Part shown: positions 1 through 40,287 of the stretch, one piece after another | How positions within the stretch are numbered: position 1 is the stretch's first letter | Layout of the letters: each line of letters starts with the position of its first letter | Assembly (NCBI RefSeq): GCF_057098645.1 | Contig: NZ_CM169472.1 | Reading direction: 5' to 3' (one strand) | Length of the DNA: 64,000 bases | Program-made: the position numbers and the translations under genes | Notes under the pieces: model-generated | Seen by the model: only the letters and a program-made list of their open reading frames with translations | The model's database searches: none | What the model was told of the DNA's origin: nothing

Positions 1-63
1 AGAGATGACAGGCGGACTTAACGACTGGCGGCAACAACAGAGTAACGGTTGCGAGGAAAGATG

Positions 64-291
64 ATGAAAACCGCAAAAGAGTACAGCGATACCGCAAAAC
101 GTGAGGTCAGCGTCGATGTCGATGCCCTGCTGGCGGCGATCAATGAAATTAGCGAAAGCGAAGTTCATCGCAGCCAGAACGATTCTGAACACGTTAGCGT
201 CGATGGACGTGAATATCATACATGGCGTGAATTGGCGGATGCCTTCGAACTGGATATTCATGACTTCAGCGTCTCTGAAGTGAATCGTTGA
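64..291 (+). CDS. yodD: Small stress-induced protein YodD
   Basis: 75-aa product MKTAKEYSDTAKREV... matches recalled YodD; position upstream of yedP as in K-12. ORF-track start at 49 is probably an upstream in-frame Met. Confidence 0.75.
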   Translation: MKTAKEYSDTAKREVSVDVDALLAAINEISESEVHRSQNDSEHVSVDGREYHTWRELADAFELDIHDFSVSEVNR

Positions 292-570
292 ATGCACAAT
301 AAAAAAATCCCGACCCTGAGGGGGTCGGGATGAAACTTGCTTAAGCAAGAAGCACTTAAAAAATTCGTTACACCAGGAAATCTGATGTGTTCATCACCTT
401 ATCCGCAATTTTTTTCGCTGACAAGAAAATATTCGCTATATGAATGATTAACGCTACTTATGAATAGAAATGTGACGCACGTCACCCCTTGGTGGCTCTG
501 GCGTCAGCGGGATCGCTCCCGAAAAAATCATCTTTGATTATTTGTGCTGTTTTGAGAATCATCCTGGTAA

Positions 571-3095
<2,525 letters not shown>

Positions 3096-3265
3096 CCTGA
3101 CGACTCCCCACCTGCTTTTTTATGATTCTGGCATAACCTGGCGATAGCGTACCGCAAAACAGCGATAATTTTATAATGGTGGCATGATAAGACGCGACTA
3201 TCATTCATTGCAGGCATTGGCACATCAGGCCGGATGTGATCCGGCCTGGTCTTAATGATACCCTT

Positions 3266-3448
3266 TCAAACTTCTTCCGCAGGACGACTCCCCTCCCCCG
3301 GAACAAGCTCGGTTTCATGAAAAGCTTCCCGCTTGACCCCGTAACCGTCATACCAACGACACTCAACCATACCGCTGGAGTATCCAGTGACAATCATCCG
3401 CGGGCCACCCTCTTTAACCGTAACTTCCTCACTAACCATAAAGCTCAT
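3266..3448 (-). CDS. yodC: Small protein YodC
   Basis: 60-aa ORF MSFMVSEEVTVKEGGPRMIVTGY... in the expected position between yedQ and yedI. Confidence 0.65.
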   Translation of the reverse strand: MSFMVSEEVTVKEGGPRMIVTGYSSGMVECRWYDGYGVKREAFHETELVPGEGSRPAEEV

Positions 3449-3526
3449 ACTCGCCTCCTTTTTTCGAGTGAAATTTGTTCACCTTAGTTGAAGATGGCGA
3501 ATTTTGCATAATAGCCTGTGCGAGTT

Positions 3527-4444
3527 TTAATGTGCCTGACCGCGCATTTTCTCTACGGCTTTCACTCCCAGCACCACGATGCCGCCGATGATAAATCCAA
3601 GAATCAGATTTAAAACAGTCGGTAATATCATCGCCACCACTGCACTTTGCTGCCCGGCGAAATGTTCAATGGCGTGATGCAGCGGCGCAATACCATGTAC
3701 CACAATCCCGCCGCCGACGAGGAACATCGCCAGCGTGCCGACAATCGATAACGCTTTCATCAGCCAGGGCGCAATGATCAATAACCCTTTACCTAATGCC
3801 TGCATCAGCGTGCTGGATTTTTCCGCCAGCCAATACCCCAGGTCATCAATCTTAACGATAACCCCTACCAGACCGTAGACGCCCACGGTCACTACCAGCG
3901 CGATGCCTGACAGTACCAGCACCTGATTAATCAACGGCGCTTCGGCCACAATCCCCAGCGTGATGGCGACGATTTCGGCAGACAATATAAAATCGGTACG
4001 AATCGCTCCTTTTATTTTGTCCTTTTCAAACTTCAGCGGATCCTGCGCCGCCAGCTTCTCCAGACGCTGCTGGCTCTGCGCCGGATCTTCCTTATGTTTA
4101 CGCGCCTCCAGCATATGCAGCACTTTCTCTACCCCTTCAAAGCAGAGAAACGCGCCACCAATCATCAACAGAGGCGTAATCGCCCACGGGATAAACGCAC
4201 TGATGATCAGCGCCAGTGGCACCAGAATCACTTTATTAATCAGCGATCCTTTCGCCACGCCCCAGACCACGGGAAGTTCCCGGTTGGCCCGCACGCCTGA
4301 AACTTGTTGCGCATTGAGCGATAAGTCATCCCCTAATACACCGGCGGTTTTCTTCGCCGCCAGTTTGCCCATCACGGAGATATCGTCCAGCAGTGTGGCG
4401 ATATCATCGAGCAACGTCAGTAAACTACTCCCGGCCAAAAGCAT
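3527..4444 (-). CDS. yedI: DUF808 inner membrane protein
   Basis: 305-aa ORF with several hydrophobic segments; conserved position. Confidence 0.8.
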
Positions 4445-4616
4445 TCCCTCTCATTTTTATTGTTGAAGGGTGTAAGTATGAAGCAAAAACGGCAGCTCTG
4501 ATACTTGCTTCACAGGTCAACATTTTTTTAACAATCAAGTGCAATTATATCTCTCGCCAGCAGAATGATTTTCACGTTTACTATGAACCACCTTTTTATT
4601 TCCACCGTGAGGGATT

Positions 4617-5537
4617 ATGCGTTTCCGCCAGTTATTACCGCTTTTTGGCGCGCTGTTTGCGTTGTATATCATTTGGGGCTCAACCTATTTTGTCATTCGG
4701 ATTGGCGTGGAAAGCTGGCCTCCATTAATGATGGCGGGCGTTCGATTCCTGGCAGCCGGTATTTTATTGCTGGCATTTTTGCTACTGCGCGGACACAAGC
4801 TCCCCCCGCTACGTCCGCTGCTCAATGCCGCGCTGATTGGCCTGTTATTGCTGGCTGTCGGTAATGGCATGGTGACGGTTGCCGAACATCAAAATGTTCC
4901 TTCCGGCATCGCCGCCGTAGTGGTTGCAACCGTGCCCCTCTTTACCCTGTGCTTCAGCCGCCTGTTTGGCATTAAAACGCGCAAACTGGAATGGGTGGGT
5001 ATCGCCATTGGGCTTGCCGGAATCATCATGCTCAATAGCGGTGGAAATTTAAGCGGCAATCCGTGGGGCGCGATTCTGATTTTAATCGGCTCGATTAGCT
5101 GGGCGTTTGGCTCAGTTTATGGCTCGCGCATTACCTTACCTGTAGGGATGATGGCGGGTGCGATTGAGATGCTGGCGGCAGGCGTGGTGTTAATGATCGC
5201 GTCGATGATTGCGGGTGAAAAACTGACGGCGCTCCCTTCCCTTTCAGGCTTCCTTGCGGTCGGCTATCTGGCGCTGTTTGGTTCGATTATCGCCATCAAC
5301 GCTTATATGTATTTAATCCGCAACGTCAGTCCGGCTCTCGCCACCAGCTACGCTTACGTTAACCCGGTGGTCGCGGTCTTGCTGGGTACGGGACTGGGCG
5401 GAGAGACGTTGTCGAAGATTGAATGGCTGGCGCTCGGCGTAATTGTCTTCGCGGTGGTACTGGTCACGTTGGGAAAATATCTCTTTCCGGCAAAACCCGT
5501 AGTTGCGCCAGTTATTCAGGACGCATCAAGCGAGTAA
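4617..5537 (+). CDS. yedA: EamA/DMT-family transporter
   Basis: 306-aa polytopic membrane protein (about 10 TM segments) in the expected position. Confidence 0.8.
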   Translation: MRFRQLLPLFGALFALYIIWGSTYFVIRIGVESWPPLMMAGVRFLAAGILLLAFLLLRGHKLPPLRPLLNAALIGLLLLAVGNGMVTVAEHQNVPSGIAAVVVATVPLFTLCFSRLFGIKTRKLEWVGIAIGLAGIIMLNSGGNLSGNPWGAILILIGSISWAFGSVYGSRITLPVGMMAGAIEMLAAGVVLMIASMIAGEKLTALPSLSGFLAVGYLALFGSIIAINAYMYLIRNVSPALATSYAYVNPVVAVLLGTGLGGETLSKIEWLALGVIVFAVVLVTLGKYLFPAKPVVAPVIQDASSE

Positions 5538-5996
5538 ATGAATCCCCTGCGTGTCGATCTGCGCGCTGGCACCTTCGCCGCAGATCCACTCTTCCAGACG
5601 CTCGCTAAGCGCTTCATCCGTCAGCTTCTCGCGCCCACGTAACGCGCACTCCCAGACAATCAATACGCGCCAGCCGAGTTCCTGCAAGCGACTGATATCG
5701 CGGCGATCGCGCTCAACATTTTTACCTATCTTCTCCAGCCAGAACTCGGTTCGAGTCGCAGGCACTTTAAACAGATAGCAGTGATGATGATGCCAGAAGC
5801 AGCCATGGGTAAATATCACGCAGCGATATTCATCAACGACAAAATCCGGGCGTCCGGGCAGACTGGCGTCCTGAACGCGAAACGCCAGGCCCTGCCCGGT
5901 TAACAGACTGGCGAGGCGCTTCTCAATCGCCGTATCACGCGTGGCAATCGCGCGCATATTTTTGCTGCGAGTGGCCTTATCGTGAACGTCGGCCAT
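5526..5996 (-). CDS. vsr: Very short patch repair endonuclease
   Basis: 156-aa product [25 protein letters not shown]...; start is internal to the 210-aa track ORF and overlaps the 3' end of dcm, the classic dcm-vsr overlap. Confidence 0.85.
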
Positions 5997-7395
5997 GTTG
6001 TGCCTCTTGCTGACGCAACGCCACCGCCTGTTTGATTTTTGGCTCAAGCAGTTTTGCCACCGCGGCAAAGACCGGCACGACCACCGAGTTACCGAACTGG
6101 CGATAGGCCTGAGTGTCCGAAACCGGAATGCGGAATTTCGCTTCTCCCGGCGCTTCAAAACCCATTAAGCGCGCGCATTCCCGAGGCGTTAACCGACGTG
6201 GACGATGTTGCTGATTCTGCGGATCGTCAAAGTCTTTCTCACCCGTGGCCATATCCCAGCCGCGATCGATTAAAATTTCCGCGCCATCTTTGTAATAACG
6301 CGCAGACAGCGTACGGGTGACGCTTTGCGGATTGTTCGGATAAACCATTCCATAACCGAAGCCGTTACCGCGCGCCTGATGTTTTTTCGCATATCGATAG
6401 AGGTACTTCCACAGCACCGGCGTCAGGATATATTTCGCCTCGACCATCGGGTCCAGCAGCTGCGCTAGCGTCACTCGCTGTCCAGGGAAACATTCGCTGA
6501 TATCACGCAGAGTAAAATCGGCTTTAAGATTCAGATCGCGACGAAAACCCACCAGCACGATGCGTTCACGGTGCTGCGGCAGAAAATGTTTACCATCGAT
6601 GATTTTCGGATCGTCCGGCCCGTTATCTTCTGCATCAGCCACGTCATAGCCCAGTTCGTCCAGCGTCTGCATGATGATGCGGAACGTTTTACCCTGGTCG
6701 TGGCTTTTCAGGTTTTTGACGTTTTCGAGCACAAACATCGCCGGACGACGCGCGTCGATAATGCGCACCACATCAAAGAACAGCGTGCCCTGAGTATCGC
6801 AGGCAAAACCGTGCGCCCGCCCGAGCGAGTTCTTTTTCGATACGCCAGCCAGCGAAAATGGCTGACAAGGGAAACCGGCCAGTAAAACATCGTGTTCAGG
6901 AATGTGTTGACGAATATGTTCCGCCGCCGCCTCATCACTCACGCCTTCTTTATGGCTGAGGGTGATGTCGCGGATATCTTCATTAAAATGATGCGTCGCC
7001 GGATCGCAATAATGGTTGGCTTTATAAGTGCGTACCGCATGTTTGTTCCATTCGCTGGTAAACACGCACTGTCCGCCAATCGATTCAAAACCGCGACGGA
7101 TGCCGCCAATTCCGGCGAATAGATCGATAAAGCGAAACGCATAATGCGGATGATGTGCCGGTGGTTTGGGTAACAACGTTTGCAGATGGGCGAACTCTTT
7201 CTCACTTAAACGGTGCCATGCCGAGTCATTCGCCAGCGCACGTTTTAAAATTGCCGCGCTCCAGTGATTCTCACCTACACCATTAAGCTGAGCCACCAGC
7301 GTTTTAACATCATAAATTTGCAGCAGTTTCTCCAGCATTGCCTGTGCGGCATTCCCGGTGCTGTATGAATCGGTTACTGATATATTTTCCTGCAT
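5977..7395 (-). CDS. dcm: DNA cytosine-5 methyltransferase
   Basis: 472-aa ORF with C5-MTase motifs ([17 protein letters not shown]). Confidence 0.9.
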
Positions 7396-7461
7396 AGATT
7401 TAACCGGCCATCTGAGATGGTCGACAGGTTAACATAATTACTGCCGTTTAGGGCCACGCGC

Positions 7462-8157
7462 TCAGCCCGCAGGTGAAAACGCATCTATCACCTTGTGATC
7501 GACACCTTCATTCTCCCCCGCCAGTTCGGCACTGAGCTTCGCCATAAACTCGACTAAAAATTGCGCGTTGTGCTGCGCCAGCTGCTTGCCTCTTACGGTT
7601 TGCATGGTTTGCGGTAGCTTCAGCAACTTAGTCTGGAAATGATCCAGCGCGTAGCGTTTATCATCAAGCGGGCGATACTGTGCGAACGGATCTTCGCCAT
7701 CAAACAGCGCCACGCCCAATGCCCCTGAAACGGCAAACACGCGCGCCAGGCCAATCGCCCCCAGGGCTTCCAGCCGATCCGCATCCTGGACGATTTTAGC
7801 TTCCGTGGTTAAGGGGGCGATTTGCGCGCTGAAACTGTGAGCGGCAATGGCATGACAAACGGCCTCGATTTTCTCCGCCGGAAATTGCTCGAACTCTTCA
7901 CGGAGCAGGCGACGCGTCTCTTCTGCCGCCAGGATTGAAGAACGCTGCCGTTGCGGATGATTTTTCGCCAAGCTCACAATATCGTGAAAATAACAGGCGG
8001 TTAAAATCACCAGCATATCGACGTCATCATCTGCCGCCAGCTTCTGTGCCGTAGCCCAGACGCGGCGAAAATGACACACGTCATGGGCCGCGTCCTGGTG
8101 CTGATGATGGTTTTTCAACCAGTTTTCGAACTCTGCCTGCCAGTGTTGTAAGTCCAT
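7462..8157 (-). CDS. yedJ: HD-domain phosphohydrolase
   Basis: 231-aa ORF with HD-domain His/Asp residues (CHFRRV... HD); conserved position. Confidence 0.8.
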
Positions 8158-8196
8158 ACGCGCTCCGTTGCCAAAGAGTCGCCACCTTAGCAGTTT

Positions 8197-8499
8197 TTAT
8201 TCATAGCGTCTGCTACGTGCGGGACGAGGTCGGGTGTACCAGGCAATGCTGCCTAACAATGCCCCGACCAGAGCCATAAATAAAAATCCGACCAGTGCCC
8301 CTAACCACTTTCCCGCGGTAGAGCCTAAATCGCTTTCAAATCCCGACACGGGGGCATCGGGGATCCGGCTCATCACCCAGATGTAACGCGCCATTGCCCA
8401 GACGAAATAGCCACACCATGTATAGAAAGCCCACAAAGCCAGTTTGCCACCAGGGCTGCGAGAGAGTCTCTCTTCCATCTTTGTCGAACCGTATTCCAT
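8197..8499 (-). CDS. yedR: Small inner membrane protein YedR
   Basis: About 100-aa product with two hydrophobic helices; start chosen at internal Met (MEYGSTKMEERL...) of the 127-aa track ORF. Confidence 0.65.
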   Translation of the reverse strand: MEYGSTKMEERLSRSPGGKLALWAFYTWCGYFVWAMARYIWVMSRIPDAPVSGFESDLGSTAGKWLGALVGFLFMALVGALLGSIAWYTRPRPARSRRYE

Positions 8500-8729
8500 T
8501 TTGAGATAACCCGGAAAATTCAGACTTAGTACTATTATGTGATAAAAATCACATTTTTCCACATTGAATGAGCCAGTCAAGACTCAATCATTTTTTGAAC
8601 AAATAGATAATTTTTGCGCAACGGCAGTGAATACAAGAAAAATCGTTTTGAGCGATTTTATTTATCTTTGATATCGGCTTTATTAATTCATTCAATCAAT
8701 ATATTAGCACTGATTACAATTATACCTTT

Positions 8730-8822
8730 TTATTATTCTGTGTCATGATGCCTCCGTTATTAGCCTTTTATCGTCTTGTTTATATTTTTTGGGCCGGCAT
8801 GATGCCGGCTTTTTTTTATGCC
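8730..8822 (+). ncRNA. Candidate small RNA with intrinsic terminator (position matches the RseX locus between yedR and yedS)
   Basis: GC hairpin gccggcATGATgccggc followed by T8 at 8793-8822 on the + strand, with no CDS upstream on that strand. 5' end not determinable by eye. Confidence 0.3.
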
Positions 8823-9127
8823 TTCATTAATGTGCGCGTGATCACACCAGCCGTTTAGCGCAACAATCATTGATGCCCCCTATCTTTCCGCTCAACTCAT
8901 AACATATTGATATACATTCATAATTTTCATGAATATTTATATTTAGAATTCATAATTCTGAATTATATTAAATGGATTGGAAACATTTTGAAATCTTTTA
9001 AATATATTTGTTACACGTAATCCTTAAAATAAAATGAACTTCATAGAATAGTATCCAAATGTGCTTTTTTTGGATAACGGCACTTATTGATATATTCATG
9101 AAGATTATAATCACAAGGGAATACATA

Positions 9128-10201
9128 ATGAAAAGAAAAGTTCTAGCAATGCTGGTCCCGGCGTTATTAGTTGCTGGCGCAGCAAATGCGGCTGAAATTT
9201 ATAATAAAGATGGCAATAAAGTTGATTTCTACGGCAAGATGGTTGGCGAACGCATCTGGTCAAATACTGATGATAATAACAGCGAAAACGAAGATACCTC
9301 CTATGCTCGTTTCGGTGTTAAAGGTGAAACCCAAATCACCAGCGAACTGACTGGTTTTGGTCAGTTTGAATACAACCTCGACGCCAGCAAGCCCGAAGGT
9401 GAAAACCAGGAAAAAACCCGTTTAACCTTCGCCGGTTTGAAATATAACGAGTTAGGATCATTTGACTATGGCCGTAACTACGGTGTTGCTTATGATGCCG
9501 CAGCTTATACCGATATGTTAGTTGAATGGGGTGGCGATTCCTGGGCTTCCGCTGACAACTTCATGAATGGTCGTACCAACGGTGTTGCAACCTACCGTAA
9601 CTATGATTTCTTTGGCCTGGTTGATGGTCTTGATTTTGCGATTCAGTACCAAGGCAAAAACAGCAACCGTAGCACTAAGAAACAAAATGGTGACGGCTAT
9701 GCGTTGTCTGTAGACTACAACATCGAAGGTTTTGGTTTTGTAGGTGCATATAGCAAATCTGATCGTACTAATGAACAAGCTAGTGACGGCTACGGTGATA
9801 ACGCTGAAGTGTGGTCATTAGCAGCCAAGTATGATGCAAATAATATCTATGCAGCAATGATGTACGGTGAAACCCGCAACATGACCGTTTTGGCTAATGA
9901 TCATTTTGCAAATAAAACCCAAAACTTTGAAGCTGTTGTACAGTATCAGTTCGACTTCGGTTTACGTCCGTCTTTAGGCTACGTATATTCCAAAGGCAAA
10001 GATCTTTATGCTCGTGATGGACATAAAGGTGTTGATGCTGACCGCGTAAATTATATCGAAGTTGGTACCTGGTACTACTTCAATAAGAACATGAACGTCT
10101 ACACAGCATACAAATTTAACCTGCTGGATAAAGACGATGCAGCGATTACCGATGCCGCAACTGATGACCAGTTTGCAGTTGGTATCGTCTACCAGTTCTA
10201 A
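9128..10201 (+). CDS. yedS: OmpC/OmpF-family general porin (yedS-like), apparently intact
   Basis: Signal peptide [21 protein letters not shown], porin-like beta-strand pattern, C-terminal ...VGIVYQF; an intrinsic terminator follows. Confidence 0.85.
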
Positions 10202-10240
10202 TCAGCCAACGCGCCGCGGCGTGTTACTGTAAAACTGAAC

Positions 10241-10282
10241 ACTAGCCTGAGTTCGTCCCTCATCGAACTCAGGCTTTTTTAT
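10241..10282 (+). terminator. Rho-independent terminator downstream of porin gene
   Basis: Inverted repeat agcctgagttcg...cgaactcaggc followed by TTTTTTATT. Confidence 0.55.
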
Positions 10283-10792
10283 TGGCATTTCATCTCCATC
10301 TGCGGCACACGCAATTGCCAAAGCTTATCGATACACCCCCTTACCCTGCCCCTCCTGGCACAATAACATCAACCAGCTACTCTTCAAGCTAACACCCAAA
10401 TGCATTTCTTTATGAATTAATCCGTAACAAACACGCTTCCCATATAGAAATTTTTGCAAAAATAGTGCATGAAATAAGCTTTTTCTCTACCAATCCGGGA
10501 TATAAATATTCATCAGCACCACAATATTCCACATCACTAAATCTCTCCCCGCCGCCCCGTACCTCTGATAATGGTCTAAAATCATTGAGGCCACTTGCGA
10601 CGACGTTGCTCAATAAGGAAAATTTGGCGTGAATAATATTCAACACCAGTGCAGCATCATCATTACATACTTACACCCGCCGACTACCGCTTTCGATATA
10701 TTGACTCAATTTTCCAGCCTGGTTAAAAATAGCGACCAGCTCAGTCGCAAATATAGTGACTACCCTAACTAAGCAACAATAAGGAATACACT

Positions 10793-11341
10793 ATGACTGT
10801 TCAAACAAGTAAAAATCCGCAGGTCGATATTGCTGAAGATAATGCATTCTTCCCTTCAGAATATTCGCTTAGCCAATATACCAGTCCTGTCTCTGATCTT
10901 GATGGCGTGGACTATCCAAAACCGTATCGCGGTAAACATAAAATTCTGGTGATCGCCGCGGACGAACGTTATTTGCCAACCGATAACGGAAAACTGTTCT
11001 CGACCGGTAACCATCCGATTGAAACGTTGCTGCCGTTGTATCATCTCCATGCTGCAGGTTTCGAATTCGAAGTGGCGACCATTTCCGGTCTGATGACCAA
11101 GTTTGAATACTGGGCTATGCCGCACAAAGATGAAAAAGTAATGCCATTCTTTGAGCAGCATAAATCGTTGTTCCGCAATCCGAAGAAACTCGCGGATGTT
11201 GTCGCCAGCCTCAACGCTGATAGCGAATATGCAGCAATCTTTGTTCCTGGTGGTCATGGCGCACTTATTGGTTTACCTGAAAGCCAGGACGTAGCTGCCG
11301 CTTTACAGTGGGCAATCAAAAATGGGTTTTTTGTTGCCTGA
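10793..11341 (+). pseudogene. hchA: hchA (Hsp31 glyoxalase) 5' fragment, interrupted by prophage integration
   Basis: First ~177 residues match HchA (MTVQTSKNPQVDIAEDNAFFPSEY... AAALQWAIKN), then the frame runs into phage DNA (GFFVA, stop). The missing C-terminus is found at 47701-48018. Confidence 0.85.
11316..11336. other. attL junction (host hchA / phage)
   Basis: hchA reading frame diverges after ...gcaatcaaaaatg; imperfect identity with the right junction (AAATGggTTTTtTGTT versus AAATGaccgTTTTGTT). Confidence 0.5.
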
Positions 11342-17386: not shown

Positions 17387-18559
17387 TTACGCGCTGACCT
17401 GGCTAGAGAAATTCACCAGGTACTGATCGGTGATGCGCTGACGCAGCATCAGGTTTTCAAGTGGCGGCACTGGCGTGTAGTCGTAGTCGATGGTGAGTTT
17501 TCCGGCTTTCAGCGTGTCTTTGTCGTTCACCGACTCATCCAGCCAGCAATCACCACCAATGAGATAGCCCTGACTGACCAGGCTGCGCATTTTGGCGCGG
17601 ATCCCCTCGATAATGTCGCGGGCCAGCGACGGGTTAAGCGGTTTATCCACCGCCCACATGTGTGCTTCTGCCATCGTGTCCATCAGCACCTGCGCCGTGC
17701 GGGTGTAGTTTTCGAAGGCAAAGAGCGGGTCATCACTCAGGCAGCGGGAACCCCAGAAGCGGAAACCGTCTTTACGCACAAGCGTGGTGACGTCGTTCTG
17801 GTTCAGCAGACCTGCATCGGTTGCCGGGTCCTGCAGATCCCAGAACACATCAGCAGAAATTCCGGTGACACCGTTCACGCCCACGTTGGACAGGCTTTTG
17901 TGCCATCCGGTCTGCTCGTCAATTTTGGCGCGCAGACCAAGCGCACGGGCGGTGGCATATGCCGTTGCTTCGGCATTCAGCACCGTGTCCCAGCCAGTAA
18001 AGTCAGGCCAGATCAGCATCCCTTCGCGCTGGCTGAAGTTTTCACGGTAAGTGATCGCCTCCTGTACCGTCTTGCAGCCATACGCTGACAGGTAAGCAAA
18101 TCCACGCAGGCTTTGCGCCACGCTCAGCAACTCAGTAGCTACCGCCTTGGTGTCGTGGCCTGGCACGCCGAGAATGCGCGGTTTAACGCCGAGCTGTGAC
18201 TGGGCAGATAACAGGGCTTTCATGCCTGTTTTTTTACCTTCAGCGGTCACTGCTCCGATGATATTGGTCGTGGTTTCTTCTTCCGTTTCACCCTGCGGCA
18301 CACGCACAACAACGGTCACGGGTTTTGCCTGGTCAGCGATGGCGTCCAGCGAACGGGCCAGCGTACCGGACTCACCCGCTTTACCGCTGGCAGTCAGCAC
18401 ATCAGTGATCAGCACGGGTTTATTAAGAGGAAACATTTTTGCATCGGCATCATCGCCCGTGCAGACCATACCCACGATGGCGGTGCTCACCGTGGTAATG
18501 GATCGGGTGCCTTCGTTGACTTCAACAACGCGCACTCCGTGGTGGTAATCCTGAGCCAT
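17387..18559 (-). CDS. Contractile tail sheath protein (gpFI-like)
   Basis: 390-aa ORF, P2 FI-like size and position. Confidence 0.85.
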
Positions 18560-18701
18560 AGTGGCGAACCTCCTGATTGGATTAGGCTTCGCCCTATGTT
18601 GAAGTGATTGTGCCTGACAAACAGCTAAGCGCAGTTGTGTCGTTATTCACACAAAATAACGGTATTTGTCCGCTTACAGGAAAAATCAAAATAATGCTGA
18701 C

Positions 18702-19268
18702 TCAGGGCGATTCATTGTTCTCATTCGCCGGAAATTTTCTATAAATGGTAGAAACGCCCACATCAAAAATCAGTGCAATACGCTGTCTTGATTCTCCGGC
18801 CTCGAGTAAACGTCCAATCTGTGCCCACTGTTCGGTAGTCAACTTAGGACGGCGTCCACCTACTCTGCCTTTAGCACGAGCTGCAGCCAGCCCTGCCCTG
18901 GTACGTTCAACTATCAGTTCGCGTTCCATTTCAGCCAGGGCACCCATGACATGAAAAAAGAAACGGCCCATTGGGGTACTGGTATCAATACTGTCAGTCA
19001 GACTTCTGAAATTCACGCCGCGCTGGCGCAACTCTTCTATCAGAGTAACAAGATGCCGCATACTGCGCCCCAACCTGTCCAGCTTCCAGACAACCAGTGT
19101 GTCACCTGCCGATAGTGTCCTGAGCAGTTTTTTAAGCCCCGGTCGGTCGGACTTCGTGCCGCTGATTTTATCCTCAAAAATCAGCTCACATCCTGCACAC
19201 TCCAGCGCGTTACGCTGCAATTCCGTATTCTGGTCATTTGTTGACACGCGGACATAGCCAATAAGCAT
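18702..19268 (-). CDS. Serine site-specific DNA invertase (Hin/Gin/Cin/Pin family)
   Basis: 188-aa ORF MLIGYVRVSTNDQNTELQ... with catalytic Ser region and C-terminal HTH (GVSTIYRKF); adjacent to the invertible tail-fibre segment. Confidence 0.85.
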   Translation of the reverse strand: MLIGYVRVSTNDQNTELQRNALECAGCELIFEDKISGTKSDRPGLKKLLRTLSAGDTLVVWKLDRLGRSMRHLVTLIEELRQRGVNFRSLTDSIDTSTPMGRFFFHVMGALAEMERELIVERTRAGLAAARAKGRVGGRRPKLTTEQWAQIGRLLEAGESRQRIALIFDVGVSTIYRKFPANENNESP

Positions 19269-19323
19269 GATGGATCCCCTGAATAAAAACCGGGGATGAT
19301 GCCAGTTAGCCGTAATCTCTGCA

Positions 19324-19349
19324 TTTTCTTAAACGTTGGTTTGGGAGAA
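19324..19349. repeat. Invertase crossover site (left), gix/hix-like
   Basis: TTTTCTTAAACGTTGGTTTGGGAGAA; about 20 of 26 positions match the inverted partner at 21269-21294. Confidence 0.5.
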
Positions 19350-19790
19350 GCGGCAAAACGAAATGTGGGCAACGGGGAAAACCAAATCCCTGATATGTCT
19401 TTCTGGACGGTTACTGGTGGCAATGGAAATTTTGTGATTCGTCAACCTGACGGACTAATCATTCAGATGGTTACTGTAAGTATAAGCGGTCCAGTGGCGA
19501 TGAATGGAATGACTGATAATGCTTATGCCATTACAGGTTCTAATAAGTCTTATATTGCCACAGCCACATTGCCCTTTGTATTTCCTAATAAGGTGCTGGG
19601 CGTTATCCCTCTGGTATCAACAACAGCTTATGGTGGTGTATCCAGTAATATTACAGGTTCATACGCGACGGCGGTTTGTTCTTTTGCCGCTGTCAGGGGG
19701 AATAATACGATTGTGTTCAAAGTCGACAAACCACTGAATGCAGCCTTTCCTTCAGATACCAGCGTCTCAGCGTTAATCATTGGACGGTAA
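19350..19790 (+). CDS. Alternative tail-fibre C-terminal segment (Hc'), expressed only after inversion
   Basis: ORF begins at the crossover site, lacks an N-terminal domain, and is followed by a tail-fibre assembly gene; mirrors the Mu G-segment S'/U' arrangement. Confidence 0.55.
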   Translation, partial: AAKRNVGNGENQIPDMSFWTVTGGNGNFVIRQPDGLIIQMVTVSISGPVAMNGMTDNAYAITGSNKSYIATATLPFVFPNKVLGVIPLVSTTAYGGVSSNITGSYATAVCSFAAVRGNNTIVFKVDKPLNAAFPSDTSVSALIIGR

Positions 19791-19792
19791 GA

Positions 19793-20236
19793 ATGAACTC
19801 AGTATTCTTTTCACCCGCAAGTAAAAGTTTTTATCTGCAAGAATTGTTTCCAGAATATGAGGATGCGGGAACGCTTCCTGATGATGTTATTGAAATTACC
19901 AGAGAAACATATGAGCAATTTCTTGGGCTGCATCCAGAAGGGAAAGAAATTGGCGCTGACAGTTCAGGACGGCCAATATGGATTAATTCCCCGCCGCCTT
20001 CAAAAGAGGATGAGATGCTGGCGGCTGAAATGAAAAAGATATCTTTGGTTTCAGAAGTCAATACCTACATCAATACCCATCAGTGGCCTGGCAAAGCTGC
20101 TATTGGTCGTCTGAAAGGTTACGAGCTGGAACAATATAATTTATGGCTGGATTATCTGGACGCACTGGAACTGGTTGATACCGCCAGTGCTCCAGATATT
20201 GAATGGCCTACGCCTCCGGTAGTTCAGGCCAGATGA
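19793..20236 (+). CDS. Alternative tail-fibre assembly chaperone (G'-like)
   Basis: 147-aa ORF with the conserved Tfa C-terminus ...LWLDYLDALELVDTASAPDIEWPTPP. Confidence 0.75.
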   Translation: MNSVFFSPASKSFYLQELFPEYEDAGTLPDDVIEITRETYEQFLGLHPEGKEIGADSSGRPIWINSPPPSKEDEMLAAEMKKISLVSEVNTYINTHQWPGKAAIGRLKGYELEQYNLWLDYLDALELVDTASAPDIEWPTPPVVQAR

Positions 20237-20813
20237 CATCCGGCGCGGTGCTGGTATCTGTTGCAGTCACCGCGTCAATGTAATCCAGCACAGCGTTAAG
20301 CCGGGTTGTTTCTGCCTGCGTCAGCTTCCGCCCGGCCTGCAATTTCAGCTGAATCAGACTAATGGAAGCCATAGCAGCATCAATCAGTGACTGGCGCCGT
20401 ACTTCTGCCGCGTCTACTGCGGCGTTATGCTGTGCCTCAGTATCGGTCACCCATTTCTCACCATCCCATTTATCGTATGACGTTAACGGGGCGATAGTGG
20501 TTGTATTTTCAGGGTAATCACCCGGAACTGTGATTTCTTTTGATTTTCCTGTTTCGGTGCTATAGACGATTTCACCGCGATGGTCTGGCACATATTCCCA
20601 TGAGTTAAAATCTGCAGAACGGCAAATTGCATAACCAGCTTTATATGAGCCAGGAGCATCTAAACAGGAACATGCCGGGATACCGACACCCACAGCAAGA
20701 TATTCAGTTGATGTGGAAATATATTCCCGTGTTTCACCATCATAATTATAAACGGTAATGTCTCCGGCCTTTGTGGCGATGAGTTCATTATTTAATACAG
20801 CTTTACTTATCAT
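20208..20813 (-). CDS. Tail-fibre assembly chaperone (gpG-like)
   Basis: 201-aa ORF with Tfa C-terminal motif ...LNAVLDYIDAVTATDTSTAPDVIWPELP; downstream of H. Confidence 0.75.
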   Translation of the reverse strand: MISKAVLNNELIATKAGDITVYNYDGETREYISTSTEYLAVGVGIPACSCLDAPGSYKAGYAICRSADFNSWEYVPDHRGEIVYSTETGKSKEITVPGDYPENTTTIAPLTSYDKWDGEKWVTDTEAQHNAAVDAAEVRRQSLIDAAMASISLIQLKLQAGRKLTQAETTRLNAVLDYIDAVTATDTSTAPDVIWPELPEA

Positions 20814-22330
20814 GCAGCCCTCACAATATAATTAAAGGCGATGTTACGGGAGCGGGTTTCAGATGCTGTGCGAACTGAGCGAGATGCGTCGAATGTCCAG
20901 TTATAAGCGCCATAACCCTCAATAATTTCGGCTTCCTTTAGACCTGTAGATAATACTTGCCCATGTTGACTAAATGGCCCTGAACTAAGTACGTCTCTAA
21001 AAAGCTGGGTACGCCCAAAAGAACCAACAATATTCTGAATTGCATCATTCTGTGCAGATAATAAGTTACGACCAGAGTCAATCCCGCGCCCATCATCCCA
21101 GCCACGAATAAATTCACCGCGTAAATCTGGTAATTTTAATGTTGGGTAAGCCTTTGCCAGATTTGGGTACTTTTCAGAAGAAAATGCTGCTCCGTTACAT
21201 TTTAGCCAGCCCGTTGGTGGTGTTTCTAAGGGCCACGGAACGGGCACACCAACAGGCAGTGCAGAGCCTTCCCCCAAACCAAGGTATGCGAGAAGACCAG
21301 CTACATCCTTTCCACTCAAATGAGTCAGCGTCTCATCCAGCGGTTGTTTACCTGCCAGCGCATTAAGCATTGTCGTGGCAAAGTTCGGGTCATTCCCCAG
21401 CGCTGCCGCCAGTTCGTTCAGTGTATCCAGTGCCGCAGGTGCAGAACCCACCATTGCCGCAATCGCCGATTTCACAAATGCCGTGGTGGCAATCTGTGTA
21501 TTGTTGACCGACTGTGCCGCAGTAGGTGCGGTTGGCGTTCCGGTGAGTGCCGGACTCGACAGCGGCGCTTTCAGTGCCAGCGCATTGTTAATGGTGGTAC
21601 TGAATTTCGGATCATTGTTAATGGCTGCGGCTATTTCTTTCAGCGTGTCCAGCGTGGCTGGCGCACCATTAATAAGAGCCGTCAGAGCCGCCTGAACAAA
21701 CGCGGTGGTCGCAATCTGCGTGGTGTTATTCCCTGCGGCTGGCGTTGGCGCTTTGGGTGTCCCGGTAAACGTCGGACTTTCTTTGGGTGCATACTGTGAA
21801 TGCGGGTCCGGTGCGGCAAGATGTTTTGCCATCTGATCATCCGCGTACACCTTCAGCTCCAGTGCCTTGTCATCCACATACTTGCGGGTTGCCAGCACTA
21901 CGGCAGGGTCGATTTTCAGGGTGATATTGTCCGTGCTGCTGGTAATCAGCACCATGCGCACGGTCTGAGTGCGCCCGCTACCTTCAGCCAGTTGCGGCTT
22001 ATAGCTTTCCGGGCAGTTGCCCACGGCAATCAATGCCCCGGACTCATCAAACAAGCCCACTTCACGTATCCACCAACCGCCCTCGTTTTCAGGGATCACC
22101 TGTTCGGCAATAATCTGGCTGCTGTTCTGCAGGTCGATATAGAGCATATTCAGCGCAGCCCGGCGTTTCTCATTTACCAGTGCAGTCTGCTTTGAGTCTG
22201 GCGTTGGCAATACTCCGCCGCCATCGCCGACCGCCATATGGGTAATTTTTAGCGGCACACCGAGCGCGGCGGCGCTGGCAAGTTTCGCCGCGCCAATATC
22301 CGTCAGCAGGGTATAAAATTTTGTGCTCAT
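20810..22330 (-). CDS. Tail fibre protein (gpH-like); C-terminal ~160 aa lie inside the invertible segment
   Basis: 506-aa ORF with repeated tail-fibre-type motifs (TTQIATTAFV... twice); a crossover site lies inside it. Confidence 0.8.
   Translation of the reverse strand: MSTKFYTLLTDIGAAKLASAAALGVPLKITHMAVGDGGGVLPTPDSKQTALVNEKRRAALNMLYIDLQNSSQIIAEQVIPENEGGWWIREVGLFDESGALIAVGNCPESYKPQLAEGSGRTQTVRMVLITSSTDNITLKIDPAVVLATRKYVDDKALELKVYADDQMAKHLAAPDPHSQYAPKESPTFTGTPKAPTPAAGNNTTQIATTAFVQAALTALINGAPATLDTLKEIAAAINNDPKFSTTINNALALKAPLSSPALTGTPTAPTAAQSVNNTQIATTAFVKSAIAAMVGSAPAALDTLNELAAALGNDPNFATTMLNALAGKQPLDETLTHLSGKDVAGLLAYLGLGEGSALPVGVPVPWPLETPPTGWLKCNGAAFSSEKYPNLAKAYPTLKLPDLRGEFIRGWDDGRGIDSGRNLLSAQNDAIQNIVGSFGRTQLFRDVLSSGPFSQHGQVLSTGLKEAEIIEGYGAYNWTFDASRSVRTASETRSRNIAFNYIVRAA
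21269..21294. repeat. Invertase crossover site (right), inside gene H
   Basis: TTCCCCCAAACCAAGGTATGCGAGAA, inverted relative to the site at 19324-19349; central AAACCAAGGT resembles hix/gix. Confidence 0.5.
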
Positions 22331-22932
22331 GGATTCACTCTCATTGTGTCAATAACATGGACCGCCCCGCCTTCATGCGCGGTGCCGCCAGAAATAATTG
22401 TTTCGTTGATATACGGATAGATCGTGATTTCTTCGCCAAGATAGCTGGCGGCCCCCACCCAATGCGGACCGCTGGTCTGCAGATTGATGGACATGCCGAT
22501 CATGTGACGGCTACATGGTTTGGCATCGCTTATCAGCCGCTCAAGTTCCAGATAGGTATCTTCAGTGATGCCCTGGTCCTGCACGCCGATATCCAGGCGA
22601 AACGTGCCCGGTGTTTCTCCGGTCTGCCACCACTCAATAATGCGGATCAGGAATCCGAACGGTTCCACCACCCGCCGCACGGCACTGGTGGTTCCTTTAT
22701 GCTGATGAATATAAAAAGCATCCTTCACTACCTGGCGTTTGACGCTTTCTGTCCAGCCCTCGTCCCAGCGATCCACAGAGAACGCCCAGGCGAGATAAGG
22801 CAGGAAGCTGACCGGACAGGTAGCCGGACTCCACAAGTCACGCAGCGGCACCTGCAGATCAGAAATCCCGCTACAGGTTTGCGCCAGTCGGCGCTCCAGT
22901 GAAGTTGAACCCGGTGGCAGCAGACTATTCAT
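22327..22932 (-). CDS. Baseplate protein gpI-like
   Basis: 201-aa ORF between J and H; P2 synteny. Confidence 0.75.
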   Translation of the reverse strand: MNSLLPPGSTSLERRLAQTCSGISDLQVPLRDLWSPATCPVSFLPYLAWAFSVDRWDEGWTESVKRQVVKDAFYIHQHKGTTSAVRRVVEPFGFLIRIIEWWQTGETPGTFRLDIGVQDQGITEDTYLELERLISDAKPCSRHMIGMSINLQTSGPHWVGAASYLGEEITIYPYINETIISGGTAHEGGAVHVIDTMRVNP

Positions 22933-34362: not shown

Positions 34363-34377
34363 GGTAATGACTCCAAC

Positions 34378-34881
34378 TTATTGATAGTGTTTTATGTTCA
34401 GATAATGCCCGATGACTTTGTCATGCAGCTCCACCGATTTTGAGAACGACAGCGACTTCCGTCCCAGCCGTGCCAGGTGCTGCCTCAGATTCAGGTTATG
34501 CCGCTCAATTCGCTGCGTATATCGCTTGCTGATTACGTGCAGCTTTCCCTTCAGGCGGGATTCATACAGCGGCCAGCCATCCGTCATCCATATCACCACG
34601 TCAAAGGGTGACAGCAGGCTCATAAGACGCCCCAGCGTCGCCATAGTGCGTTCACCGAATACGTGCGCAACAACCGTCTTCCGGAGCCTGTCATACGCGT
34701 AAAACAGCCAGCGCTGGCGCGATTTAGCCCCGACGTATCCCCACTGTTCGTCCATTTCCGCGCAGACGATGACGTCACTGCCCGGCTGTATGCGCGAGGT
34801 TACCGACTGCGGCCTGAGTTTTTTAAATGGCGGAAAATCGTGTTGAGGCCAACGCCCATAATGCGGGCGGTTGCCCGGCAT
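34378..34881 (-). CDS. insB: IS1 transposase InsB
   Basis: 167-aa [21 protein letters not shown]... matches IS1 InsB. Confidence 0.9.
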
Positions 34882-35075
34882 CCAACGCCATTCATGGCCA
34901 TATCAATGATTTTCTGGTGCGTACCGGGTTGAGAAGCGGTGTAAGTGAACTGCAGTTGCCATGTTTTACGGCAGTGAGAGCAGAGATAGCGCTGATGTCC
35001 GGCGGTGCTTTTGCCGTTACGCACCACCCCGTCAGTAGCTGAACAGGAGGGACAGCTGATAGAAACAGAAGCCAC
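34800..35075 (-). CDS. insA: IS1 InsA
   Basis: 91-aa ORF with zinc-finger [16 protein letters not shown]... matches IS1 InsA. Confidence 0.9.
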
Positions 35076-35130
35076 TGGAGCACCTCAAAAACACCATCAT
35101 ACACTAAATCAGTAAGTTGGCAGCATCACC

Positions 35131-37410: not shown

Positions 37411-39416
37411 TTAATACAGGTTCCGCCACTTATCATCTTCCTGCAAACGCTGGTTCCGATAGAAGATACGCAGGCCTGCTCCTGACGGAATACTGCCGCC
37501 GCGAAGGAGTAAATCGACCTCTTTCTCGCTGCCATCAAATCCTCTGGATTTCAGTTCATAGACGAGCTGCTGTCGTTGATGGTCTGTAATTCGCTGTTTG
37601 TAGTCTCTACGCCGTTTCGGTTTCACCAGACGTAACCTTGCAGCCAGTTCCCGGCGCTCCTTTTTGTTCATACTGTGCAGGTAATCGTGCAACTCCTTGT
37701 CATCCATGCGGGTAAAGTCCGTTCTGGGGTCCCCATCAGCTGATTTATCTTTCTCCTGTTGGTTCAAATTTTCAGCAAGGGGACAGTTATTGCCACGAGT
37801 CCAAGGGGCGCAAGCGCCCTGGTCGGCTGCCGCCTCCTGAACGTCAACGGCCTTACGAACCATTTTCCACTTCACTGCATGAGTACAAATCTTGCCCTCT
37901 GCAATGGGTGACCAGATGCCATAAATACGAATACCGTGATCGCCATAGGCGGTCGGCTCTTCGTTAATTTCATAAGCTGTTCTGATAAGGTGATATTTGC
38001 GGGGAACCAGTACGCCGCCCTGCTTCATAATGTAGGTGGCAAAACAACCAGCATCAGCAGCAGCCAGAATGGCATCAAGGCGCGGGTTATCCAGTACCGG
38101 CGCACCTGCTTTTTTGTCACCCTGTTGCCTTGCCGCCTGACCAGCCAGCAATCGCAATTCACGGTACGCCTGACGCCCCGGAATACCAAAGAAGCGAAAT
38201 TGCTGAACACGATGCAGAGACGCCCAGGCATTAACGTATTCAGCGTTATCACGCAGGGATTTACCCGTTTCCTTGCTGATTTCGCCAGCCAGACCACGCC
38301 CATCAATGTTCTTACTGATGTATTTCGCGATGTAGCTTGTCGGCGTTCCTTTTCGCGGGTTAATCAGCTCAGACTTAAAGCGCGGCCCCGTGTTATTGCC
38401 CAGCTCCTCACGGTCTTCACGGATAGCAAACTTACGCAACAATGCAGTAATGGCGCGGCGGTCTTTTTTGCGCATGAAACACAACAGGTGCCAGTGAACT
38501 GTGCCGTCATGATGCGGCTCAGCCACCCGCACGCCATACCAGCGCAACCCGGCTTTGTGCATCGCCTTACGAAATGCAGCAAACATACCGACCAGATAAT
38601 CGCTGCTTTGTCTTACCGTCGCATTTGTCCATGTCGGGTTGGGTCTGCCGTTATTGAGCGTGGAATGGAAACGTGACGGACAGGTAATGGTGTAGAAAAC
38701 GGCGCAGTCACCGCGCATTTCCGCGATAAGCTCCAGACCTTTAACACAGGCCATCATCTCATTGCGACGATGCGCCGGGTTGCTGCTGCTGGCGTTTACC
38801 ACATCTTCCATATCCAGCGCGTCTCCGTCTTCGTTCACCAGTTCATGAGAACGGAAAAACTCCAGTGACTTACGGCGCTGCTCACGTTTATGCATCACGG
38901 CTTCATAGCTGACATAGGGAGATGCTTTTTTGCTGACCAGGCAGACAGCACGCAACTGCTCTTCCCGCCATTCGCAACGCATCTTCCACAATTTCCGATA
39001 CCACCAGTCGGCGCACAGCATACGCGCCAGCGAACCCGGAATGAGTTCATAGGGCACGGGTTTACGGCGGTTTCTTTTCCGACGGAGTTGCTCAAACGCA
39101 GGCGGGATGACATCCAGACGCAGGGTTTCCGCTGCCACCTTTTCCCATGTCTTGCGGATTTCTTCTGGCTTAACGTCATCGGTGGCATACAAATCACCAC
39201 AAGCTGCATCAAGGCACATACTCATATGCGCAGCTACCAAGGTGGACAGGCGTTTCACCTGATCCTGACTCATTTCAGGCAGGATCAGCAGGCCGTCCAG
39301 CCCTTCATGGCTTGCCATAAAGCGAAAAGATGCAGATAGCTGACTGTCGCGTACATGCTCCAGTCGTTCCAGACATGGCTTAATCGTCTCACGTAAATAG
39401 CGGGAATAAGCCTTTG
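37411..39416 (-). pseudogene. Replication initiation endonuclease gene A, 3' portion (split by IS21-family insertion)
   Basis: 635-aa ORF with rolling-circle initiator motif ([11 protein letters not shown]); frame stays open upstream of the annotated Met as far as the IS boundary. Confidence 0.8.
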
Positions 39417-39515
39417 TGCGTATTCCGCTCTATTCGATCACGGATTGGCATCGAAGTCCGATCAGCGATTCGCATCCATTCGATCAACCGGGAACTTAAC
39501 TTTTTCTACCGCTTT

Positions 39516-40271: not shown

Positions 40272-40287
40272 ACTGTTGTTCCTTCTG

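What the first reader, a model, noticed from the sequence alone, without database searches (positions are those of the whole stretch)
18702..21294. Gin/Hin-type invertible tail-fibre segment (host-range switch)
A serine invertase gene adjoins two inverted ~26-bp sites (19324-19349; 21269-21294, inside tail fibre gene H). Between them, on opposite strands, are two alternative fibre C-termini, each with its own assembly chaperone (G/Hc on minus, Hc'/G' on plus). Inversion would swap the receptor-binding tip, as with the Mu G, P1 C and e14 P segments. P2 itself lacks this.
Basis: partly seen in the sequence, partly recalled or inferred. Interest (0 to 1): 0.5.

Follow-up and report, generated by a model that had tools for sequence, protein, structure and literature searches.

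The report
Flip-switch for phage tail-fibre tips
This is an ordinary Gin/Pin-type DNA flip-switch in a P2-like prophage of E. coli: by inverting a 1.9-kb segment it swaps the receptor-binding tip of the tail fibre, and related prophages are found in both orientations in public genomes.

Summary

- **Invertase:** a 188-aa serine invertase gene lies at 18702-19268 on the minus strand. It is 85% identical to e14 PinE and 76% to Mu Gin, and the catalytic Ser9 is present.
- **Sites:** two 26-bp gix/pix-like sites lie in inverted orientation at 19324-19349 and 21269-21294. They are the only two in 64 kb (0.06 expected by chance). Both have a central TT.
- **Cassettes:** the right site lies in codon 350 of tail-fibre gene H. 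Between the sites are two tip-plus-chaperone cassettes on opposite strands. An in-silico flip gives an in-frame 500-aa fibre.
- **Evidence of flipping:** the flipped arrangement occurs as collinear matches in 21 complete E. coli genomes, against 29 for the window's orientation. Two clonal pig isolates differ by exactly this inversion.
- **Precedent:** inversion in P2-like prophages was shown experimentally in EPEC (PMC4272514). Most of the segment is 93% identical to a P-segment allele of e14-type elements.

This is a new member of a textbook family and of low interest. The receptor of the Hc' tip is unknown. This prophage copy carries IS1 and IS21-type insertions and is probably replication-defective.

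The parts
18702..19268 (-). Serine DNA invertase gene (188 aa), Pin/Gin family
   Evidence: Pfam Resolvase E=2.9e-53 and HTH_7 E=1.5e-15. 85% identical to e14 PinE and 76% to Mu Gin. Aligns over its full length to the Gin structures 3uj3 and 4m6f with Ser9 present. dN/dS is 0.07-0.12 against relatives.
19184..19246 (.). Putative Fis-bound recombinational enhancer inside the 5' end of the invertase gene (two 15-bp Fis-like motifs at 19232-19246 and 19184-19198, centres 48 bp apart)
   Evidence: The motif pair sits at the same gene positions (nt 30 and 78) in gin and pinE. It lies 97.5 bp from the centre of the left site; the Hin enhancer lies about 100 bp from hixL (PMC3798978). Synonymous-site conservation is highest in codons 1-30. 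This is an inference: the motif pair alone occurs in 114 of 500 shuffles.
19324..19349 (.). Left crossover site (invertase-proximal), central TT at 19336-19337
   Evidence: One mismatch to the consensus.
19338..21280 (.). Invertible segment (1,943 bp between the central dinucleotides)
   Evidence: The in-silico flip matches other E. coli genomes collinearly. The clonal pair L001/L002 differs by inversion of the homologous interval.
19338..19790 (+). Hc': alternative fibre tip (150 aa), silent in this orientation. The ORF called from the ATG at 19296/19299 starts outside the segment
   Evidence: Weak Pfam Gp53-like_C hit, 24.1 bits against a 24.9-bit cutoff. In frame with H after the flip. Fused to H in L003, L013 and L014. 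98.5-99.8% conserved with almost only synonymous changes.
19793..20236 (+). G': tail-fibre assembly chaperone for Hc' (147 aa)
   Evidence: Caudo_TAP E=2.8e-26. 54% identical to e14 TfaP.
20208..20813 (-). G: tail-fibre assembly chaperone for Hc (201 aa), TfaE-like. Its 3' end overlaps G' by 29 nt
   Evidence: Caudo_TAP E=3e-32. 90.5% identical to e14 TfaE.
20810..21280 (-). Hc: fibre tip currently fused to H (156 aa, collar type)
   Evidence: Pfam Collar at residues 361-408 of H. 57% identical to e14 StfE. PDB relatives are a short tail fibre (9cuy) and T4 gp37 (2xgf). 776 phage records match.
21269..21294 (.). Right crossover site inside H (codon 350), central AA at 21281-21282 on the + strand
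   Evidence: Two mismatches to the consensus. The same GGGGGAA variant occurs in the EPEC IR that flips.
21281..22330 (-). Constant N-terminal part of tail-fibre gene H (350 codons)
   Evidence: Pfam Phage_tail_fib N-terminal domain E=1.2e-63. Gene order V-W-J-I-H-G as in P2.

Best explanation
This is a two-state, invertase-driven host-range switch of the Gin/Cin/Pin/Hin (Din) family, built into the tail-fibre operon of a P2-like prophage.

The late operon V-W-J-I-H-G is read on the minus strand. It transcribes the constant 350 codons of H and runs across the right crossover site into whichever tip-plus-chaperone cassette faces it. In this window that cassette is Hc (collar-type tip) with G (TfaE-like chaperone), which gives a 506-aa fibre.

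The invertase is encoded just beyond the left site. Dimers of it bind the two 26-bp sites and synapse, most likely on a Fis-bound enhancer in the 5' end of its own gene. They cut at the central TT/AA, rotate 180 degrees and religate. That inverts 1,943 bp and fuses H in frame to Hc', with G' as the chaperone, giving a 500-aa fibre with a different receptor-binding tip.

Shown here: the anatomy, the in-frame fusion, homology to characterised invertases and sites, both orientations among relatives, and purifying selection on both cassettes. Inferred: Fis/enhancer dependence, actual flipping of this particular copy, and a change of receptor or host range.
For: - **Invertase identity:** Resolvase and HTH_7 domains. 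85% identical to PinE and 76% to Gin. Ser9 is present and the protein aligns with Gin crystal-structure sequences over its full length.
- **Sites:** exactly two consensus sites in 64 kb against 0.06 expected. They are inverted, and both have a central TT like e14 pix.
- **Frame:** the flip keeps the reading frame and gives a 500-aa H.
- **Both orientations in public genomes:** 29 complete E. coli genomes carry the window's arrangement at >=80% coverage and 21 carry the flipped arrangement.
- **Clonal pair:** two isolates with the same chromosome length have no differences in about 7.8 kb of flanks and differ by an inversion whose breakpoints fall inside the sites.
- **Selection:** all modules are intact with dN/dS of 0-0.3 in six relatives, three in each orientation, apart from a few near-identical pairs with only 3-10 substitutions.
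- **Experimental precedent:** the two EPEC P2-like loci shown by paired-end sequencing and PCR to flip (PMC4272514) have invertases 81% identical to this one. One of them, next to the sheath gene, has the same four-cassette layout. The other has three inverted repeats and one chaperone.
- **Enhancer:** the motif position is conserved with gin and pinE, it lies 97.5 bp from the left site, and synonymous conservation is elevated in codons 1-30.
Against: - No read-level data exist for this genome, so flipping of this very copy has not been observed.
- The closest relatives (99.9%; RM14721 and TL012) are both in the same orientation as the window.
- The enhancer evidence is indirect, because the Fis motif pair occurs by chance in 23% of shuffles.
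- No sigma-70 promoter for the invertase was found above chance.
- This prophage copy is interrupted by IS1 and by an IS21-type element in replication gene A. The switch may therefore have no consequence for phage progeny from this copy.
- The receptor specificities of both tips are unknown.
Confidence: 0.9

Rival explanations
1. Frozen relic: the parts of a switch are present, but this copy no longer inverts, or inverts with no biological consequence, because it sits in a decaying prophage.
For: The prophage carries an IS1 at 34363-35129 and an IS21-type element at 39417-42055 that splits replication gene A. The right site has two mismatches to the consensus. The 99.9% relatives share the window's orientation. 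No promoter was assigned to the invertase.
Against: The invertase ORF is intact and under purifying selection, with dN/dS of about 0.1. The same site variants occur in loci that do flip: GGTATG in the L001/L002 pair and GGGGGAA in the EPEC IR. The defective e14 element of K-12 still flips at about 50:50 (PMC4272514), so prophage decay does not stop inversion.
Confidence: 0.08
2. The orientation polymorphism among genomes comes from RecA-dependent homologous recombination between the inverted repeats, or from cassette replacement by horizontal transfer, and not from site-specific inversion.
For: The cassettes are mosaic and are shared with e14-type elements at 93% identity. The L001/L002 pair also differs by 16 substitutions inside the segment, which hints at some exchange with a paralogous copy.
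Against: The repeats are only 27 bp long and 78% matched, which is too short for efficient RecA recombination. The breakpoints fall inside the 26-bp sites. A dedicated invertase that is 85% identical to PinE sits next to them. Flipping within single colonies was shown for homologous loci (PMC4272514).
Confidence: 0.02
3. The two orientations in public records are assembly artefacts.
For: Inverted repeats can mislead assemblers. The L001/L002 difference includes odd substitutions.
Against: Dozens of independent complete assemblies show each orientation, with intact full-length fibre ORFs annotated in both. If an assembler picked one state from a mixed read set, that would itself show inversion.
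Confidence: 0.01

Closest known systems
e14 P segment with PinE (E. coli K-12 cryptic prophage e14; Plasterk and van de Putte 1985)
   Same: The invertase is 85% identical. TfaE-like G is 90.5% identical, G' is 54% identical to TfaP, and Hc is 57% identical to StfE. The site consensus and central TT/AA are the same. The layout is the same: constant part, then site, tip, chaperone, chaperone, tip and site, then the invertase, with a 29-nt overlap of the convergent chaperone genes. Non-K-12 e14-type elements carry the very same Hc'-G'-G block at 93% nucleotide identity over 1,530 bp.
   Different: The host element is a P2-like myovirus prophage, not e14. The constant part is the 350-codon P2-type H N-terminus, not the roughly 95-residue StfP N-terminus. 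The K-12 StfP tip is unrelated to Hc'.
Invertible segments in the two P2-like prophages of EPEC E2348/69 (Goldberg et al. 2014, PMC4272514; NC_011601 2977580-2979467 and 1891695-1893703)
   Same: They sit in the tail-fibre region of P2-like prophages. One lies between the fibre/chaperone genes and tail sheath FI, as here. The invertases are 81% identical and the TAP 89% identical. One IR begins with the same ACCTTGGTTTGGGGGAAGGCTCTGCACTGCC as the window's right site. Flipping was shown by paired-end sequencing and PCR.
   Different: The tips are diverged (55-58% for Hc, 37% for the gp53-like tip). One EPEC locus has three 215-bp repeats and four states, whereas this window has only two short sites and two states. 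The other EPEC locus is in a truncated prophage that lacks the H constant part.
Mu G segment with Gin; P1 C segment with Cin; Salmonella H segment with Hin
   Same: The recombinase family is the same: 76% identity to Gin and about 65% to Hin (Hin sequence from memory). The 26-bp site architecture is the same. The likely enhancer is in the 5' end of the invertase gene. For Mu and P1 the logic is also the same, a constant fibre N-terminus with alternative C-termini and chaperones.
   Different: Mu gix has a central TC/GA, not TT/AA. The Mu S/S' and U/U' proteins show no BLASTP similarity to the tips and chaperones here. Hin flips a promoter, not a coding cassette. P1 was not compared here.
Phage P2 tail-fibre module H-G (Peduovirus P2)
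   Same: The H N-terminal domain family (PF12571), a Caudo_TAP chaperone, and the gene order V-W-J-I-H-G followed by FI.
   Different: P2 has a single fixed tip and carries fun(Z) where this element has the second cassette and the invertase.

Membership tests
Din-family (Gin/Cin/Pin/Hin) invertase with invertible tail-fibre segment | Small serine recombinase: N-terminal resolvase catalytic domain with the Ser9/10 nucleophile, and a C-terminal HTH | tested here: met
   Pfam Resolvase and HTH_7. Ser9 aligns with the Gin active site in 4m6f and with the position mutated to Ala in 3uj3.
Din-family (Gin/Cin/Pin/Hin) invertase with invertible tail-fibre segment | Close sequence relationship to experimentally characterised invertases | tested here: met
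   85% to PinE and 76% to Gin. 81% to the EPEC P2-like prophage invertases.
Din-family (Gin/Cin/Pin/Hin) invertase with invertible tail-fibre segment | Two 26-bp sites (12-bp imperfect dyad half-sites around a 2-bp core) in inverted orientation | tested here: met
   Sites at 19324-19349 and 21269-21294, with 1 and 2 mismatches to the consensus. They are the only two in 64 kb, against 0.06 expected.
Din-family (Gin/Cin/Pin/Hin) invertase with invertible tail-fibre segment | Identical central dinucleotide in both sites, so that the ends pair after a 180-degree rotation | tested here: met
   TT in both sites when read in the same relative orientation, the same as e14 pix.
Din-family (Gin/Cin/Pin/Hin) invertase with invertible tail-fibre segment | Fis-bound recombinational enhancer in cis (two Fis sites about 47-48 bp apart, about 100 bp from one site) | tested here: inconclusive
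   Fis-like 15-mers at gene nt 23-37 and 71-85, at positions conserved in gin and pinE. They lie 97.5 bp from the left site, and the Fis-contact residues are conserved. Synonymous conservation peaks in codons 1-30. However, the motif pair occurs in 114 of 500 shuffles, and no binding data exist.
Din-family (Gin/Cin/Pin/Hin) invertase with invertible tail-fibre segment | Crossover lies inside the fibre ORF and is in frame in both orientations, and each alternative tip has its own chaperone | tested here: met
   The crossover is in codon 350 of H. The products are 506 aa (now) and 500 aa (flipped). There are two Caudo_TAP genes. The fused H-Hc' ORF is annotated in the flipped relatives.
Din-family (Gin/Cin/Pin/Hin) invertase with invertible tail-fibre segment | The segment actually inverts | tested here: inconclusive
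   Met for close relatives: 29 against 21 genomes in the two orientations, a clonal pair differing by the inversion, and experiments on homologous EPEC loci (PMC4272514). Not testable for this copy without reads.
Din-family (Gin/Cin/Pin/Hin) invertase with invertible tail-fibre segment | Inversion changes adsorption or host range | not testable with these tools
   Neither tip has a known receptor. Hc' has no PDB relative and only distant phage relatives.
Shufflon (Rci tyrosine recombinase, multiple sfx repeats) | Tyrosine recombinase and more than two repeats giving multiple inversions | tested here: not met
   The recombinase is a serine resolvase/invertase, and there are only two sites.
P2-like (Peduoviridae) prophage | P2 gene order and hallmark proteins (ogr, D, U, T, E/E', FII, FI, H-G, I, J, W, V, capsid, terminase, portal, gene A, CI) | tested here: met
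   RefSeq annotation of the 99.9% identical RM14721 prophage, and comparison with P2.

The most novel reading that the evidence does not exclude
The silent Hc' tip is an uncharacterised receptor-binding module with only a weak gp53-like_C signature. It has no solved relative, and among sequenced phages its best match is 38% identity over 69% of its length. Yet it is 98.5-100% conserved and very widespread in Escherichia, Shigella, Salmonella and Enterobacter genomes, where it is shared between P2-like prophages and e14-type elements. It could be a recently swept cassette that targets a receptor not yet known for any characterised phage. The crossover sites could act as the portable junctions that let it move between unrelated tail types.
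Probability: 0.35. Interest if true: 0.35.

Novelty: new member of a known kind. Interest (0 to 1): 0.15.

Why it matters
It matters little for discovery. Invertible tail-fibre segments driven by Gin/Cin/Pin-type invertases have been textbook material since the 1980s. Their presence and activity in P2-like prophages of E. coli has been annotated and shown experimentally.

The practical value is for annotation. The 163-aa 'hypothetical protein' that RefSeq calls next to the invertase is the silent alternative fibre tip. Fibre proteins of this prophage group will differ between assemblies simply because of switch state. Host-range predictions for P2-like phages, or engineered tailocins built on them, should take both tips into account.

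The Hc' tip is common and highly conserved, and its receptor is unknown. That makes it a reasonable target for receptor mapping.

Tried and rejected
- **PDB search with Hc':** no hit at E<=1.
- **Hc' against phage records:** only 11 distant partial matches, so no receptor could be inferred.
- **Hc against phage records:** 776 matches, but none to a fibre whose receptor I could document.
- **Promoter and terminator scan of 18450-22450:** promoter-like sites were at chance level (6 found, 5.3 expected), so no invertase promoter was assigned. A weak terminator-like hairpin at 19307-19288(-), between the left site and the invertase start, was not interpreted further.
- **Fis motif scan:** by itself it is uninformative, because 23% of shuffles give a pair at the right spacing. 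I replaced it with positional conservation and synonymous-site conservation.
- **Third or longer repeats (shufflon-like, as in one EPEC prophage):** none were found.
- **Shufflon/Rci model:** rejected, because this is a serine recombinase with two sites.
- **Johnson's review of serine invertases:** not held in the library. PMC3798978 was used for the family features.
- **PADLOC and Pfam on ORFs in the P2 moron hotspot:** no defence hits. This did reveal the IS1 and IS21-type elements.
- **tRNA scan:** none in the window.
- **Not run:** structure prediction of the tips and a metagenome junction census. The complete-genome evidence already answered the orientation question.
Full report
**1. The observation**

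- **Repeat:** the repeat finder returns one inverted pair, with arms at 19324-19350 and 21268-21294, 27 nt long and 78% complementary.
- **Sites:** read as 26-bp sites, they are TTTTCTTAAACG-TT-GGTTTGGGAGAA (left, + strand, 19324-19349) and TTCTCGCATACC-TT-GGTTTGGGGGAA (right, - strand, 21294-21269). They agree at 20 of 26 positions.
- **Chance:** with up to three mismatches, the generic gix/hix/pix consensus TTNTCNNAAACCNNGGTTTNNGANAA hits exactly these two places in 64 kb. Shuffles give 0.06 hits on average and never two.
- **ORFs:**

| Gene | Coordinates | Strand | Evidence |
|---|---|---|---|
| invertase (188 aa) | 18702-19268 | - | Resolvase + HTH_7 |
| Hc' | 19296-19790 | + | 164-aa ORF, weak Gp53-like_C match |
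| G' | 19793-20236 | + | Caudo_TAP |
| G | 20208-20813 | - | Caudo_TAP |
| H (506 aa) | 20810-22330 | - | tail-collar fibre |

**2. Context**

- The region is 99.9% identical to prophages in E. coli RM14721 and TL012. The RM14721 annotation shows a complete P2-type gene set, from ogr through D-U-T-E-FII-FI, the switch, H-I-J-W-V, lysis, capsid, terminase and portal, to gene A and CI.
- In phage P2 itself the slot between G and FI holds fun(Z), and there is no invertase.

**3. Anatomy of the switch**

- The right site lies inside H. The central TT is the last two bases of codon 350 (CTT). In the Hc' frame the left site has GTT-GGT at the same register.
- Exchanging at the central dinucleotide and inverting 19338-21280 gives an uninterrupted 500-aa H. 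Its last 150 residues are Hc'.
- The two chaperone genes converge and overlap by 29 nt, as tfaP and tfaE do in e14.

**4. The recombinase and its sites**

- The invertase is 85% identical to e14 PinE and 76% to Mu Gin. It aligns end to end with the Gin crystal-structure sequences, and the nucleophile Ser9 is in place.
- The sites resemble Mu gix and e14 pix as read from the reference records. The central dinucleotide is TT/AA, as in e14. Mu has TC/GA.

**5. The enhancer**

Hin-type inversion needs a 65-bp enhancer with a Fis site at each end, about 100 bp from one crossover site (PMC3798978).

- Two Fis-like 15-mers lie at nt 23-37 and 71-85 of the invertase gene (window 19232-19246 and 19184-19198). 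Their centres are 48 bp apart. The same positions carry the motif in gin and pinE.
- The proximal motif is 97.5 bp from the centre of the left site. The Hin residues reported to touch Fis and enhancer DNA (K47/R48/K51 and Q151/R154/L155) are conserved as K46/K47/R50 and Q150/R153/L154.
- The motif alone is weak evidence, because 114 of 500 shuffles give such a pair.
- More telling is synonymous-codon identity among five divergent invertase genes. It is highest in codons 1-30 (0.57 against 0.41 elsewhere), and the best 22-codon windows of 158 are nearly all in that stretch.
- I treat the enhancer as likely but not shown.

**6. Does it flip?**

I built the flipped sequence and searched the complete E. 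coli genomes.

- The window's arrangement is collinear at >=80% coverage in 29 genomes. The flipped arrangement is collinear in 21, with single-piece full-length matches at 96.9% in strains SW070919 and 1916D18.
- In the flipped genomes RefSeq annotates the predicted 1,503-nt H-Hc' fusion.
- Two pig isolates from the same site, 1504D004 and 1604D011, have chromosomes of the same length (5,198,112 bp). They are identical across about 7.8 kb flanking the switch and differ by an inversion whose breakpoints lie inside the two sites.
- Across six relatives, three in each orientation, all six modules are intact. dN/dS is 0-0.3, apart from a few near-identical pairs with only 3-10 substitutions. This includes the cassette that is silent in the window.

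**7. What is already known**

- Goldberg et al. 2014 detected inversion by paired-end sequencing, confirmed by PCR, in e14, in a Mu prophage and in two P2-like prophages of EPEC E2348/69 (PMC4272514).
- I fetched both EPEC loci. One sits between the fibre/chaperone genes and tail sheath FI and has the same four-cassette layout as here. The other has three inverted repeats and a single chaperone gene. Their invertases are 81% identical to this one and a chaperone is 89% identical. One published IR starts with the same sequence as the window's right site, including the GGGGGAA variant.
- Several deposited P2-like phages (500465-1, 'P2' from O157:H43 T22, Cartapus, Klebsiella KP12) already annotate a DNA invertase with two fibre-assembly genes at this position.

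**8. Origin of the cassettes**

- The Hc' tip looked rare among sequenced phages: 11 records match, and the best is 38% identity over 69% of its length. It has no solved relative.
- In bacterial genomes it is very common. It occurs as the 163-aa silent ORF and, at 99-100% identity, as the C-terminus of a 247-aa protein.
- That protein has the N-terminus of e14 StfP. It sits in e14-type elements with a Mu-like baseplate, followed by the same G', G, collar tip and resolvase remnant.
- The window's 19331-20860 is 93% identical over 1,530 bp to that P-segment allele, and the homology starts inside the left crossover site.
- The invertible cassette is therefore a module shared between unrelated tail types. 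This fits the long-standing view of horizontal exchange of fibre genes (my own knowledge: Haggard-Ljungquist 1992; Sandmeier 1994; not checked here).

**9. Caveats for this copy**

- Relative to RM14721, this prophage has a 0.77-kb IS1 at 34363-35129, in a moron ORF. It also has a 2.6-kb IS21-type element (IstA and IstB) at 39417-42055 that splits replication gene A.
- It also sits at a different chromosomal site, next to a flank that is 100% identical to O145:H28 strains.
- It is probably replication-defective. Flipping may still go on, as it does in defective e14, but without phage progeny from this copy.

**10. Verdict**

This is a new member of a well-known kind and of low interest. The open points are the receptors of the two tips, direct proof of Fis/enhancer dependence, and read-level proof for this strain.

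Noticed in passing
window 39417-42055 (IstB 39516-40514, IstA 40288-41934); gene A fragments 37411-39318 and 42039-42470: An IS21-type element (IstB with a Mu-transposase-like IstA) is inserted in replication gene A of the P2-like prophage. It is absent from the otherwise 99.9-100% identical RM14721 prophage. This copy is probably replication-defective.
   Followed up: partly
window 34363-35129: An IS1 copy (transposase ORF 34378-34881) is inserted, with a 9-bp overlap of the flanking alignments, in a hypothetical 463-aa moron gene downstream of the portal gene (the P2 old/tin hotspot). The neighbouring hotspot ORFs have no Pfam or PADLOC hit.
   Followed up: partly
L001 3823-4708 versus L002 (NZ_CP149565 / NZ_CP149553): The two clonal pig isolates that differ by the inversion also differ by 16 substitutions. 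All of them lie in the G'-Hc' half of the segment, and there are none in the other ~8.9 kb compared. One isolate matches the window allele at 16 of 16 positions. The other matches the e14-type allele at 9 of 16. This could be conversion with a paralogous cassette or a polishing artefact.
   Followed up: partly
window 1-11324: The left host flank (porin, yedJ, hchA, dcm, drpB) is 100% identical to E. coli O145:H28 strains. The near-identical prophage in RM14721 lies next to ybjL instead, so the same phage occupies different chromosomal sites in different strains.
   Followed up: partly
L015-L017 (6001-8413): e14-type elements in many E. coli carry StfP-constant fused to the same Hc' tip. In L016 the adjacent resolvase is reduced to a 42-aa remnant next to a GmrSD-type gene, which suggests a switch locked by loss of the invertase.
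   Followed up: no
L001/L002 9220-9789: The related P2-like prophage in the pig isolates carries a TIR-domain protein gene next to baseplate gene V. It is absent from the window's prophage, where V is followed directly by S.
   Followed up: no
window 19288-19307 (- strand): A weak terminator-like hairpin followed by a T-run lies between the left crossover site and the invertase start codon. It might limit read-through from the late operon into the invertase gene. It was not evaluated further.
   Followed up: no
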